This document shows positions 26,541 through 57,834 of a stretch of DNA of 64,000 bases, piece by piece. Position 1 is the first letter of the stretch, and the number at the start of each line of letters is the position of its first letter. This stretch comes from the human T2T-CHM13v2.0 reference genome, Homo sapiens: assembly GCF_009914755.1 (NCBI RefSeq), contig NC_060926.1. One strand, 5' to 3'. Position numbers and translations under genes: made by a program. The notes under the pieces are model-generated. The model worked only from the letters and a program-made list of their open reading frames with translations. It was not told where the DNA came from and searched no databases.

Positions 26541-27539
26541 CCTCATAATTTTGCTAGCATATTTAAAATAAAATATCAACATATGAATACACAGACTCAA
26601 AGCTTCCATTTGTTAAACATGGACTTTATAATTATGCAGAGAATGGATCCAGTGAGTTGCTTGGATCCCTTTCATGTGGATGCACTGAGAAAGTTCAGAC
26701 TCCTAATTACAATCTTTTTCTTCTTTACCTGGCCAAATTCTTGGTGAGGAATTTTGTTTCTTGACCCTATTCTTTATTATTATTTCCTAAAGGATAACAA
26801 CTGCTGATCATAGGAGAAAGTAATAGAATTCTTTAGGGGTTTTGGTGATAACCAACTCAGAAGAAAATGCCATATTACAAAAAAGAAGAAAAAAAGAAAC
26901 CTAGAAAAGACCTCGAAAAGTTCCAGGCTAGAATATACCCACCCACAAGCTAAATTAGTCTGCTTTTTGATTCATCTGAGGGATGATCAGAAAGGTTGGG
27001 AAAAACTTACCCACAATAGGCAACTTGCATTGTCTTGTAAAACTCTTCTTACACTTTGCTCCCTTCTGATATCCTACCCTTTCAAATCATTCTACACATT
27101 TCCTCTTCCTCTGCTCTTTTCCTCATATATGGAAGCCTTGGAAACTATGTGTTAAAGGCACTACAGCCTCCACCAACCACAGTCCTCAAACAGGTGAAAT
27201 AGAGCTTTGCCCATCCATCCCATCCTCTATCAACATGGAACCCCCTTGTTTACAAGAATGTAAAACAAGCCTCAATTTTGCTTGAGCTGTTACATAGTTT
27301 TTGGTCCATTTAACAGCTATTATCCTATAACATTGAATATAGAAGTCATAATGAAAACTGGCACTGGTGATGAGAATGCTGTGGCCCATGCTTGTAATTC
27401 CAGCTGAGCCAGGAGGATTGCTTGAGTCCAGGAGTTCGAGGCTGCAGTGAGCTAGGATGGCGCCACTGTACTCCAACCTGGGTGACAGAGCAAAACCCTG
27501 TCTCTAAATAAATAAATAAATAAATAAATAGAAAGAAAC

Positions 27540-36285: not shown

Positions 36286-37668
36286 CCAGATAATATGAAT
36301 TGCAATCAGAGTAAACTTAATCGGGAAACAGTAGTTCTAATTTCAAGCCCTGTTTGTGGCCATTTGGCATCTTCCTTGCCTGGACCACTTCTTGGTGCTG
36401 AGCTAGAGGTTTCCTATTACTCTATTAGTCACTTGCAGAGTAAGCCCTACTGAACTCCAAACAGAAATAAAACCCCTTGGAGGTTTTAGTGGTGCCCAGT
36501 GAGCCAACAGAAAAGGAAATCACGTAACAAGACTAGGGGCACCCGGGGAGCTCCAGGAACTCAGGAGTAGGACCAGGCCCACCTGACACCGCCCTGGTGT
36601 GACTCTCAGACGCATCTCACCAGCAGAGGTTAATGTGGCAGCAGCACTGTTGCCAGAGACAGAGAAAATTTTACCTACCACAGGCAGTTCTGCTTTGTCA
36701 ACCTGCTTGCCATGTTCCTACACCTCACTACCATTCTGCTACTTACCCTTCCTGCTTGTCTACACATCTCTTCTGACTCTTATTCTTTTTCTTACCATGG
36801 ATCATCTTGGAAGATAACTGTTAAAATGTTAAAAATGGCAGAGCCTCCAGCATCCTAGGTGTCTGAATGACTATGGGGGTCACAGTCCCCTAGCCTCTCT
36901 CCCAAAGCCCCCACAACTCCACTCATGACCTGGAACACTGTAGATTGTCCACAAAGCAAGAATTAATTTCTATTTAGTTTAGCAATTACAAAAGTTCAGG
37001 GTCTATTTAATATAACATAGCGTACCCTAACTAACAAAAAAGATTAATCTGGACTCTTCAGAACTTTTTGTTTTACTTGTGAATGATTTCACAATCAGAT
37101 TTAATGTTTCATAGAAATTTTTTTATGTTCATTTGTGTACCAAGAATTCTGATTTGGACATACTTCTTTTCCTAACATGTATTTTCAGAGATTTCTCCCC
37201 AGCAACCAGTTAACTATAAAGCAATGAGAGGAAAACAGAAACAAAATCACGGGATGATCATTTCTCTCTGTGTATCTCTACCTTTCTAAGGAAAATGACA
37301 GCTATAAAAATGAATTCTAGCAATCAAAGGTGGTAATTCCAGCTCTTCCTTTAATTCCCTATTTGGCATTGTAAAAAGACAAGGGAAAAGTCACCTTAAG
37401 CATCTGTGGGCTTTCGTTTTGTCATGTATAAAACAGGGCAATCAGTAATTCATTCTGCTTACATTTCATGATTGTTGTAAAGTTAAAATCAGAGTTTTTT
37501 GCAAAACCTTTTGATAAACCACCACGTGTTCAATGACAAATAAAAAGTAAAATGAGAAAATATAAAGTAAAAATCTGCGCTGTTATTTATGAGACTGGAT
37601 TAATAGATACAAAGTCAGTTGCAAAGTTAACAGGAAACAATATTTCTCCTAAGAACTTGCTGCAGATA

Positions 37669-45939: not shown

Positions 45940-46197
45940 ATGTGAAAGGGAAAAGCAACAGAAATATGCTAGCTTCTTTCTAACCTAATGTCAATACCAG
46001 AGCACACATATTCAATGAAGGTTGCCTCTCCCATTTCCCAAAGTGCCAGGTGAGGTGAGGGCACAAAAAGAGCACCAGGGATAACTGCATCATGGCTATG
46101 GAGTGCACTCCAGTTGAAATGCATTAGGAAGCAGACACTCTAAACTCAGGCGTCTGAGGTCCTGGAGCCCCACACGAATGGTCCTTGCCCTTCTCAC

Positions 46198-46278
46198 CAG
46201 GCCTGGGCATTGATGCTGAGATGGAGGCTTCCAGGGGCTCTTTGCCCTCACAGGAATCAGAGTCTTCACTGCTGATCG
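46198..46278 (-). pseudogene. SP-paralog exon with SIM acidic tail (AISSEDSDSCEGKEPLEASISASMPRP)
   Basis: ttttgttccttcgtgcag acceptor, gtgaga donor, 81 nt, phase 1-1; aligns to SP100 VISSEDSEGSTDVDEPLEVFISAPRSEP. Confidence 0.85.
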
Positions 46279-46983
46279 CTGCACGAAGGAACAAAATCCT
46301 TTAGGGTCTCAGTGTGGGATGCAGGAGCCAACACCGCAGGAAACGCACAATTAGGGACACCAGAAAAGACCCAGGAGCTTGTGTGACTTGCAGGTAGGAA
46401 TGTCCCTGCCCAGCACAGTTGCAGTGCTCCTGCGGAATGCTGAGCCGCAGGGTCCTGGTGCTCCAGGCACTGAAACTAGACCCTCAGGCTGGGGGCAAAT
46501 GGCCATAGTGGCCAGCTTTGCGTGTCTTGCTCTCCATTTCCTTACTTCCTCTCTCTTCTTTCCCTTCCCATTGTCTCTGTCCATTTCTCCACTCCTGCTT
46601 CTTTCTTGCAGCTTCTCCCTCTTTGTTTGTCAATCTCTGTAAACGCCTCTCTGGCATTTCTGTTTCTGCCTCTTTTGCCTCCTTGCACCTCTGTCACTCT
46701 CGCCTGGCTTTCTTGCATTACATACCTGCCCTCCACGTCTCCTCTGAGCCACTTCTCCCTCTCCCAGGTGTCTCTGTACTTTTCCATTTCCCCACCAACT
46801 TTCCTCTGTCGTGCAGAAGCTCCCTGAGCTAAACACCAGAATCCACGTCTCCCAGCATTCATCTGGGCTCCCTGGGCCACCACGTGGGACTCTGACCACA
46901 CCCCCAGCCTGTCACTTCTGCTGTGACTCACACAGTGTCACCGCATCAGCCTTACCGATTATTACACCCTCCACCAGCCTTAC

Positions 46984-47088
46984 CGATTATTTCAGGGGCT
47001 TGGTTACACGCCTTCCTTGCCATCTGGATGTCTTCCGGGAGCACAAAACTAGGTTGCACCCAATTTTTGGATCTGGATAGCTTTGCCC
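46984..47088 (-). pseudogene. SP-paralog exon (GAKLSRSKNWVQPSFVLPEDIQMARKACNQAPEII)
   Basis: tttgttctag acceptor, gtaagg donor, 105 nt, phase 1-1; end aligns to SP100 ARTHHNQASDII. Confidence 0.82.
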
Positions 47089-50215: not shown

Positions 50216-50299
50216 CTTGTCTACCATGTGGCAGTCTGCTGGGCATCTCTTCTGACCCTCTCTCCTTTTTTACTTGGAGAGCCTCGAGTTCCCTAGGCA
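50216..50299 (-). pseudogene. SP-paralog linker exon (VPRELEALQVKKERGSEEMPSRLPHGRQ)
   Basis: ttttatgttccctcttcag acceptor, gtact donor, 84 nt, phase 1-1; resembles SP140 repeated linker exons (SSELENHPMNEEGESEELASSLL). Confidence 0.78.
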
Positions 50300-50962: not shown

Positions 50963-51103
50963 CTACTTGGGTGCATGTGTTTGCTTGCTGTGTTCCAAGA
51001 GCATCACCTGGGCCAAGGATAGAACATTCTGGCTTTATATATGTTGACTTCACATCCTAGACAGGCTCAGAGGTTTCTGTTCTGGTTCCAGAATGGATGG
51101 CCC
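50963..51103 (-). pseudogene. SP-paralog exon with in-frame stop (GAIHSGTRTETSEPV*DVKSTYIKPECSILGPGDALGTQQANTCTQV)
   Basis: catctag acceptor, gtaagg donor, 141 nt, phase 1-1; DALGTQQAN resembles SP100 DSLGSQQTN; TAG at 51059-51057. Confidence 0.72.
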
Positions 51104-52027
51104 CTAGATGACATTATGATTTCATAAATATGGCACTGTGACATCATAAATCAAAACCTAAAGTTTTTATTTAAATGCATTAATAAATTAATCAAATATC
51201 CTTTTTGATCATGTATCCCGATTGTCAATGACATCAGAATGACCTTCCACAGCTCTGAGGGTTCTCTTATATTTCTTCTATGTCATTTCAGAAAAAGTGA
51301 TCATAAAACACTGAACAAAGAAATAAAATTTGTTATGGACATTATGGTCTAAGGATGAGGGACATTAGGAAAAATAGAAACAAGAAGATGACTGAGAATC
51401 TAGAAACAGAAGCTAGTTATGGCACAAAAGTACTGAAGGGTTTTTGAAGAGGCCCATCTGGCACCTGAAAGGTAGCTCCTAGCTGCCTGCCCCAGGAATG
51501 ATGGGTGAGGGTTTGTATGGGAGGCACAGTGGTGCCATGGTCCTATGTGAAGGACCCAACAGGGAAGAAAGCCTATCCCACAGAAGGAACATGCCCATCA
51601 TTTCCCTCCAGCCACCACAGCACAGGCCATCACTGGATGTAAGCTCAAAGCACCAAGGCAGCAGCCAGATTCAAGTAGATGCAGGCAGAAAAACTGTGAA
51701 GCAGACACATGGGTAAAACGAGCAGGCTCAGCACCAGCAGGAACCAGTAGCAAGCGTGCTTAAGGGTTGTAAGAGGAAGAAGTCCTCCCAGGCAACCTGG
51801 AGGATAAGGACTTATTATTTAAATCCTGAACTTGGAGACACTGCAAATGCAAACACTAAAAATTCAGGGCAATCATAAACACAGAGGCAACCCTCTCTTC
51901 CCTTACCCCCAGCATGTTCCAGAATGGCGCAAGAACAGCAGAGGATCACAGCACAATCAAGAGGAACACACCAACAAAAGATGAGGAATCTGAGCATGTC
52001 CAGGTCAAGCTTTGAAAAGGGTCTTCA

Positions 52028-53069
<1,042 letters not shown>

Positions 53070-54648: not shown

Positions 54649-54723
54649 CTTGTTTACAGGTTGGTTGAAAGCTGGGCATTTTTGTTGTCTCTTTTCCATC
54701 CCTTTTCTGGGAAAAGGGGAGCA
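54649..54723 (-). pseudogene. SP-paralog exon after the HSR domain (VLPFSQKRDGKETTKMPSFQPTCKQ)
   Basis: ttcttttctttgttcag acceptor, gtaat donor, 75 nt, phase 1-1; positional equivalent of the SP100/SP140 post-HSR exon ending ...EQG / ...GKQE. Confidence 0.78.

Positions 54724-57543: not shown

Positions 57544-57834
<291 letters not shown>

What the first reader, a model, noticed from the sequence alone, without database searches (positions are those of the whole stretch)
46198..47088. Splicing reconstitutes an SP100-like phospho-SIM; SUMO-acceptor motifs lie upstream
Seen: joining 47088-46984 to 46278-46198 gives NQAPEII-AISSEDSDSCEGKEPLE. SP100 has NQASDII-VISSEDSEGSTDVDEPLE, its known SUMO-interacting motif with an acidic serine tail. 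Upstream exons also encode psi-K-x-E consensus sites (IKPE in 51103-50963, VKKE in 50299-50216). Inference: the ancestral protein was HSR + SUMO site + SIM, like SP100A, so probably a PML nuclear body component able to heterodimerise with or compete with SP100/SP110/SP140.
Basis: partly seen in the sequence, partly recalled or inferred. Interest (0 to 1): 0.72.

Follow-up and report, generated by a model that had tools for sequence, protein, structure and literature searches.

The report
Lost fifth SP100-family gene in humans
A human locus annotated as a non-coding RNA is the broken copy of a fifth SP100-family gene whose counterparts in mice and many other mammals are predicted to encode a short protein that likely binds SUMO and likely joins SP100 in nuclear bodies, so human and mouse nuclear bodies may differ by one unstudied part.

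Summary
Observation confirmed. The two exons join in frame at canonical sites and are homologous to the two SP100 exons that carry its SIM. LOC112268431 also holds two open HSR/CARD exons. On an HSR tree it falls, with mouse A630001G21Rik, in a separate 52-row clade (99/93) spanning primates, rodents, bats, carnivores, sloth and sirenians. It is a fifth SP-family gene: CARD + linker + SIM, with no SAND, PHD or bromodomain. In human a GT-to-AT donor after the first HSR exon breaks it; an in-frame TAG lies in a skippable exon. The SIM core is kept in 27 of 33 species whose models include the first SIM exon; human has IIAI where most have IIVI. Correction: IKPE and VKKE are not SP100's K297 site, which simians deleted, and they are only patchily kept. 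All six SP100 filament-interface residues are kept and SP110's capping-specific ones are not, so I predict an SP100-like polymerising CARD. Binding, localisation, synteny and dN/dS are untested. Ten literature searches found no description of the human loss.

The parts
60560..60684 (-). First exon of the RefSeq model; holds a short Gly-rich remnant resembling SP100's first coding exon, without its ATG
   Evidence: hub annotation; translation against the start of human SP100 P0067; protein-level resemblance only
57622..57777 (-). HSR/CARD exon A with the start ATG, 52 open codons
   Evidence: Pfam PF03172 E 3.4e-17; start Met invariant in 36 aligned orthologues; 69% DNA identity to the SP100 exon
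57620..57621 (-). Dead splice donor: AT where the homologous SP100 donor has GT; the main human lesion
57707..57708 (-). Cryptic donor inside HSR exon A used by the RefSeq model; baboon and one snub-nosed monkey model join at the same place
   Evidence: P0064 and P0101
55867..56035 (-). HSR/CARD exon B, open, AG/GT intact, skipped in the RefSeq model; two substitutions seen in 0 of 51 clade rows (positions 53, 58)
   Evidence: Pfam E 9.2e-19
54649..54723 (-). Linker exon, phase 1-1
51972..52028 (-). Remnant of the SP100 exon-5 homologue; its acceptor is replaced by an Alu-like repeat (boundaries approximate)
   Evidence: hub repeat mask 52024-52696; 'Alu' is my recognition of the sequence
50963..51103 (-). 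Skippable linker exon with in-frame TAG (51059-51057) and IKPE (51038-51027)
50216..50299 (-). Skippable linker exon with VKKE (50273-50262)
46984..47088 (-). First SIM exon: gives the first two residues of the core; homologue of the SP100 exon that holds K297, 42 nt shorter and lacking that site
46124..46278 (-). Last coding exon: rest of the SIM core (first base makes Ala, not Val), Ser/acidic tail, old donor at 46198 read through, TAA at 46126-46124
36378..36460 (-). Decayed downstream exon remnant similar to SP100's second SIM exon and to a manatee orthologue's last exon (boundaries approximate)
26730..26805 (-). Decayed downstream exon remnant similar to a tarsier orthologue exon (boundaries approximate)

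Best explanation
LOC112268431 is the broken human copy of a separate SP100-family gene, grouped by its HSR/CARD domain with mouse A630001G21Rik, whose intact form is predicted to be a short CARD-linker-SIM protein that likely docks on SUMO in PML bodies and likely polymerises with or alongside SP100. Shown: exon structure, HSR, the human lesions, the separate clade, SIM conservation, absence of SAND/PHD/bromodomain, retention of the six residues SP100 needs for its filament. From papers: mouse mRNA is induced with Sp100, Sp110, Sp140 and Pml in stimulated macrophages; SP100 needs CARD and SIM for foci and toxicity. Inferred: (1) the orthologue models are translated; (2) the CARD self-assembles or co-assembles with SP100 rather than capping it as SP110 does; (3) the SIM tethers it to SUMOylated partners, and inclusion or skipping of exon 47088-46984 would switch the SIM on or off; (4) lacking chromatin readers, it would tune the amount and anchoring of SP100-type polymer. 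In human no intact HSR can be spliced at the homologous donor, so the SIM is most likely a relic. Odds: orthology 0.95; no full protein in human 0.9; SUMO/PML-body role in other mammals 0.65; polymeriser rather than capper 0.6 given that role. The confidence below is for the whole chain.
For: HSR over the Pfam cut-off in both exons. The genome holds six HSR genes over cut-off: four SP genes, this one and AIRE (names assigned by position and sequence). Tree of 83 rows: locus in a 52-row clade at 99/93 with mouse, rat, squirrel, lemur, bat, carnivore, whale, camel, hedgehog, sloth and sirenian rows. AU tests on 26 rows reject grouping it with SP100 (p 0.0006), SP140 (p 0.001) or primate SP100/SP140L (p 6e-30). 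SIM core in 40 of 48 models, 27 of 33 named species, that include the first SIM exon. Second core position Ile in 26 of 26, fourth in 24 of 26. 13 of 86 models keep the last exon but skip the first SIM exon. SP100 interface residues from PMC13649554 source data in 51 clade rows: F40 49, E44 49, R47 46 (plus 5 Lys), D48 50, V68 39 (plus 10 Ile), Y75 49; the non-interface control E58 0; background 38 of 96 columns. SP110's Y25 is in 0 of 51 and H66 in 1 of 51. The model of a bat orthologue matches the SP100 CARD filament chain 9TNZ (target TM 0.95, rmsd 0.7). Mouse gene is among 191 induced genes in PMC9627492.
Against: No binding or localisation data. All orthologues are database gene models; synteny outside human and dN/dS were not tested. 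No conserved NLS: only 11 of 51 clade rows have a basic cluster behind the HSR, at differing places, and SP100A without its NLS is mostly cytoplasmic (PMC12651510). 6 of 33 species lack the SIM core (four with a changed core: three bats and mouse lemur; two where the model runs into other sequence), and 2 of the 27 get it from a shifted acceptor. 28 of 61 named species have no model with the first SIM exon. 52 of 86 models have no psi-K-x-E behind the HSR. The six interface residues are largely family-wide (SP140 differs at one, SP110 at two), so they separate mechanisms weakly. [quoted passage not shown] The tree has 105 columns for 83 rows and one SP110 row.
Confidence: 0.45

Rival explanations
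1. The intact protein is an SP110-like cap or decoy: its CARD binds SP100 filament ends and dissolves them, and the SIM brings it to PML bodies.
For: It has no chromatin readers, and SP110's CARD alone is enough to protect cells (PMC13649554). Mouse mRNA is co-induced with Sp100. SP110's K20 is kept in 51 of 51 rows.
Against: SP110's Y25 and H66 are absent (0 and 1 of 51), and R47, which SP110 lacks, is Arg or Lys in 51 of 51. K20 is family-wide.
Confidence: 0.2
2. The gene is real and conserved for its CARD, but it works outside PML bodies (cytoplasm or another condensate), and the SIM isoform is minor.
For: No conserved NLS. 13 of 86 models skip the first SIM exon and many end soon after the HSR. 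SP140L and SP140 sit in bodies without PML (PMC4548144).
Against: The SIM core stands out from its flanks in 26 species from four placental groups. A 25-30 kDa protein may diffuse in or be carried by SP100 (inference; SIM-mutant SP100A is recruited through endogenous SP100, PMC3136452).
Confidence: 0.17
3. The human locus is not dead: a functional allele, a cryptic-donor isoform with a shortened CARD and the SIM, or the RNA itself still does something.
For: One splice base is the only lesion if the TAG exon is skipped (247 open codons). The cryptic donor is in phase with HSR exon B and is used so in baboon and snub-nosed monkey models. All downstream splice sites are intact, and the hub lists enhancer elements over exon 1.
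Against: The listed RefSeq transcript skips HSR exon B and shifts frame, stopping within the TAG-bearing exon. The cryptic route deletes 29 HSR residues, including four of the six interface residues. The in-frame GT donors near the dead one are poor matches. HSR exon B has two substitutions unseen in 51 orthologues.
Confidence: 0.1
4. The gene is a slowly decaying duplicate in all mammals; the SIM is left over from SP100 and the database models are artefacts.
For: Linker exons vary widely, downstream exons have decayed, siamang models are frame-broken, and no protein-level study turned up.
Against: Open HSR frames in models from 61 named species; 17 invariant and 22 near-invariant positions in 36 rows; regulated mouse expression.
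Confidence: 0.08

Closest known systems
Mouse A630001G21Rik
   Same: Same HSR clade; same CARD + junction-split SIM layout; human HSR 64% identical to the mouse row P0093. Called 'a likely nuclear body protein' in PMC10530068.
   Different: Mouse models are open and carry a psi-K-x-E in the first SIM exon in most muroids; human is broken. No functional study found. That LOC319997 is A630001G21Rik is recalled; it is sister to a row named so.
SP100 isoform A
   Same: HSR/CARD, the same exon phases, SIM split over the same junction, acidic tail, no SAND/PHD/bromodomain; six filament residues kept.
   Different: A separate gene on the opposite strand; about half the length; K297 site deleted in simians; no conserved NLS; HSR 57% identical.
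SP110 CARD (filament-dissolving partner of SP100, PMC13649554)
   Same: SP-family CARD; K20 shared.
   Different: Lacks SP110's Y25 and H66, keeps R47; no chromatin readers; HSR 53% identical.
SP140L
   Same: An extra family member from local duplication at the same locus.
   Different: SP140L is a higher-primate SP100/SP140 fusion with readers (PMC4548144) that lacks the SUMOylation exons (PMC12207491); this gene is pan-placental, reader-less, has the SIM, and is broken in human.
CARD-only decoys CARD16/17/18 (recalled, not tested)
   Same: A short duplicate keeping mainly the CARD next to its parent gene.
   Different: Different CARD class and pathway; here a SIM is attached and the residues point to polymer, not cap.
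Human unitary pseudogenes (Zhang et al. 2010, PMC2864566)
   Same: Gene kept in mouse, disabled in place in human.
   Different: Not named in that paper's main text or its one readable supplement.

Membership tests
Speckled protein (SP100/SP110/SP140/SP140L) family | N-terminal HSR/CARD domain | tested here: met
   Pfam over cut-off; fold match to 9TNZ
Speckled protein (SP100/SP110/SP140/SP140L) family | Location in the chr2 SP cluster and shared exon structure | tested here: met
Speckled protein (SP100/SP110/SP140/SP140L) family | SAND, PHD and bromodomain in the gene | tested here: not met
   No SAND match at this locus among 16 genome matches; none in 36 orthologues; no PHD/bromo hit on the minus strand. 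It belongs by descent but is reader-less
Speckled protein (SP100/SP110/SP140/SP140L) family | Interferon or immune induction | tested here: inconclusive
   Mouse gene in an induced-gene list (PMC9627492); no ISRE and only chance-level GAS matches near human exon 1
Speckled protein (SP100/SP110/SP140/SP140L) family | Localisation to nuclear bodies | not testable with these tools
   needs imaging; no conserved NLS
SP100 itself (recent duplicate or isoform) | HSR groups with SP100 orthologues | tested here: not met
SP100A-type SUMO module | SIM core psi-psi-x-psi with acidic tail at the homologous junction | tested here: met
   27 of 33 species; human IIAI still fits the consensus; SP100's SIM is IIVI 323-326 (PMC3136452)
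SP100A-type SUMO module | K297-equivalent SUMO acceptor | tested here: not met
   Deleted in human and monkeys; a consensus in that exon only in muroid rodents and mouse lemur
Phospho-SIM (PML, Daxx, PIAS1 type) | CK2 consensus serines after the core | tested here: met
   22 of 26 species and human; motif only
Phospho-SIM (PML, Daxx, PIAS1 type) | Phosphorylation raises SUMO affinity | not testable with these tools
   needs assay; passages of PMC4276917 name PML, Daxx and PIAS1, not SP100
A630001G21Rik orthologue group | One supported clade across placental mammals | tested here: met
   99/93, 52 rows
A630001G21Rik orthologue group | Synteny in other genomes | not testable with these tools
   no other mammal genome held; mouse position next to Sp100 is recalled
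Unitary pseudogene | Disabling lesion and no intact copy elsewhere in the genome | tested here: met
Unitary pseudogene | Lesion fixed in the species | not testable with these tools
   one human assembly only

The most novel reading that the evidence does not exclude
Placental mammals have a fifth, interferon-induced SP gene: a reader-less CARD-SIM module with a splice-switched SIM that sets how much SP100-type filament forms in PML bodies. Apes let it decay and humans lost it by one splice base. It could help explain why mouse and human SP110/SP100 phenotypes differ, and a functional allele might still segregate in humans.
Probability: 0.25. Interest if true: 0.75.

Novelty: new member of a known kind. 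Interest (0 to 1): 0.55.

Why it matters
Current papers count three mouse and four human SP genes (bioRxiv 2024.04.03.587867; PMC8248984) and say all four human SPs carry chromatin readers (PMC13649554). A conserved reader-less member that mice keep and humans have lost is a hidden variable in mouse models of PML-body immunity. It can be tested at once with the SP100 filament and SP110-null assays already published. It also re-annotates a 'lncRNA' as a probable unitary pseudogene. The limit: the mouse gene has long been in databases with an HSR label, the human motif itself is most likely a relic, and the function is still inference.

Tried and rejected
Recent duplicate of SP100 or SP140: rejected by tree and AU tests. 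SAND/PHD/bromodomain remnants: none; profile scans of the window found no new exon over score 6 beyond those known, so the two downstream remnants rest on BLAST hits alone. IKPE/VKKE as K297 homologues: rejected. First SIM census mis-anchored 7 rows and was redone. Promoter scan: 0 ISRE, 2 GAS-like, 1 kB-like site in 2.7 kb, chance level. ESM Atlas gave only HSR clusters. Search with the last exon found 4 proteins of 16 candidates, best orangutan, no chimpanzee or gorilla name; 90% clustering can hide them, so this dates nothing. Orangutan as a broken gene: unresolved, since a lemur model skips the same 13 codons. Earlier scan findings were not available. The rest of SP100, SP140 and SP140L DNA was not obtained, so remnants were compared with 50 kb of SP100 only. 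Literature: ten searches; LOC112268431 0 papers; A630001G21Rik 15 papers; none described the human orthologue in the listings or passages seen. Gene catalogues (GENCODE, MGI, TOGA tables) could not be checked and may already record it.

Full report
1. Observation. The join is real. Exon 47088-46984 ends at a GTAAGG donor, exon 46278 follows a GCAG acceptor, both in phase 1, and the split codon GCG gives the core IIAI before a Ser/Asp/Glu tail. Human SP100 exons mapped with P0067 on 50 kb of fetched DNA have the same boundaries; identity is 68% and 70%. SP100's SIM is IIVI at 323-326 and its SUMO site K297 (PMC3136452, passages). IKPE and VKKE are in frame. In 20,000 linker shuffles a SIM core with acidic tail arose in 2.7% and two or more psi-K-x-E in 2.0%. 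The coding frame does not end at 46198; it runs to TAA 46126-46124, as in primate, seal and bat models.

2. The gene. Upstream lie two open HSR exons, 57777-57622 and 56035-55867 (Pfam E 3e-17 and 9e-19). A genome-wide HSR search gave 13 matches, 12 over cut-off, forming six genes: five on chr2, one on chr21. I name them SP110, SP140, SP140L, SP100, this locus and AIRE from position and sequence. None of 16 SAND matches lies at this locus. Human lesions: the donor after the first HSR exon reads AT where SP100 has GT in the same context, and a TAG sits at codon 149 in exon 51103-50963. All linker exons are phase 1-1. With that exon skipped and the join made at the homologous place, 247 codons are open. 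The RefSeq model uses a cryptic donor at 57708, skips the second HSR exon, changes frame and stops in exon 51103-50963, so it does not encode the SIM. In-frame GT donors 9 and 18 nt past the dead one are poor matches; their use is untested.

3. Relatives. The first HSR exon found 44 of 44 candidate proteins; a 19-row profile found 213 of 7,994 scored, 120 listed. I took 79 of the 123 proteins held, about one per species and gene, dropped two (siamang P0010 with an inserted repeat exon; P0070 with too little HSR) and added six human HSRs. The locus falls in a clade of 52 of 83 rows (99/93) that includes rows named A630001G21 and spans primates, rodents, bats, carnivores, whale, camel, hedgehog, sloth and sirenians, apart from SP100/SP140L, SP140 and SP110 (only 105 columns). 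On 26 rows, AU tests reject joining it to SP100 (p 0.0006), SP140 (0.001) or primate SP100 (6e-30). The 86 models I assigned to the clade (by tree, or as same-species isoforms by eye) have median length 216 aa; 36 scanned have HSR and no reader domain. Timing is loose: macaque, snub-nosed monkey and capuchin models are whole; siamang models need a repeat-derived exon to keep frame; both orangutan models lack 13 HSR codons, but so does a lemur model; no chimpanzee or gorilla row was seen. Synteny and dN/dS could not be tested.

4. The motifs. 48 of 86 models (33 of 61 named species) include the first SIM exon; 40 of 48 (27 of 33) have a psi-psi-x-psi or psi-x-psi-psi core. Two of the 27 (Myotis) owe it to a shifted acceptor; two of the six misses are models that run into other sequence. 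In 26 species picked for a clean join, core position 2 is Ile in 26 and position 4 in 24, while most flanking columns stay at or under 15. Position 3 is Val in 20 and also Ile, Met, Glu or Ala (rat), so human IIAI still fits, though Val-to-Ala is one of three changes in the published inactivating SP100 mutant. A CK2-type site follows in 22 of 26. 13 of 86 models keep the last exon but skip the first SIM exon, which would remove the core: an inferred splice switch. SUMO acceptors differ from SP100's. K297 lies in the homologue of exon 47088-46984, which is 147 nt in SP100 and 105 nt here without that site. By eye, among named species whose printed models include the exon, the IKPE site is kept in 7 of 10 and the VKKE site in 7 of 15; 34 of 86 models have any such motif behind the HSR.

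5. Mechanism. Aird et al. [quoted passage not shown] I mapped those numbers onto the HSRs by sequence. In 51 clade rows the six filament residues are kept, counting Lys for Arg and Ile for Val, in 49, 49, 51, 50, 49 and 49; E58 in none; 38 of 96 columns are this conserved overall. SP110's Y25 occurs in 0 and H66 in 1. The human HSR keeps all six. A model of the bat orthologue P0035 has a confident helical domain (residues 11-110) and a disordered tail and matches 9TNZ alone at E under 0.001, 1 of 101 matches. I therefore favour an SP100-like polymerising CARD tethered by a SIM. Against: these residues are mostly family-wide, SP CARDs are not interchangeable, and no NLS is conserved (11 of 51 rows with any basic cluster), while SP100A needs its NLS (PMC12651510, passages). 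Binding itself has no test here. Mouse expression: induced with Sp100, Sp110, Sp140 and Pml in LPS- and interferon-treated macrophages (PMC9627492, section 16), up in a rabies-infection table (PMC5098112, passage), and said to be mainly haematopoietic and B-cell (PMC3018144, passages).

6. What is known. The family is described as three genes in mouse and four in human (bioRxiv 2024.04.03.587867 and PMC8248984, passages); passages of the SP140L papers do not mention this gene (PMC4548144, PMC12207491). LOC112268431 is in 0 papers. A630001G21Rik is in 15 (listing); I read passages of four, where it appears in gene lists or as a mapping candidate. It is absent from the main text and one supplement of a human unitary-pseudogene survey (PMC2864566). 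Searches listed nothing on it. Subscription papers and gene catalogues were not searched.

7. Verdict. A real, previously unnamed relic SIM in what is very likely the human pseudogene of a conserved fifth SP gene. New member of a known kind; interest 0.55.

Noticed in passing
window 53477-53042 (with 54339-53943 and 52028-51592): Intronic tract 88% identical to SP100 intron DNA (flanks 78-81%) while the HSR exons are 69-71% identical; only three copies in the genome. Looks like gene conversion with SP100.
   Followed up: partly
P0051, P0060, P0063 (mouse lemur, tarsier, ring-tailed lemur): These models have the clade's HSR but SP100-type linker exons, which suggests further gene conversion or chimeric models.
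   Followed up: no
window 36460-36378 and 26805-26730, minus strand: Decayed exon remnants show the ancestral gene ran about 20 kb further toward the SP100 3' end; manatee and tarsier models seem to use such exons.
   Followed up: partly
window 52696-52024: An Alu-like repeat sits exactly at the acceptor of the exon-5 homologue, which squirrel and hamster models still use.
   Followed up: partly
window 57394-57269: Siamang models splice in this repeat-derived stretch to restore frame after the first HSR exon.
   Followed up: no
P0001 (window 57893-57544): An unnamed 116-aa database protein matches the unspliced read-through of the first HSR exon across the dead donor, with one residue different.
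   Followed up: no
SP140-group rows: All 11 SP140-group rows have Met at SP100's filament residue E44, and human SP110 has Leu at R47; this may be why their CARDs are less toxic than SP100's in PMC13649554.
   Followed up: partly
window 46970-46945: A near-copy of the end of exon 47088-46984 with its donor is repeated just downstream, giving a second GTAAGG donor.
   Followed up: no
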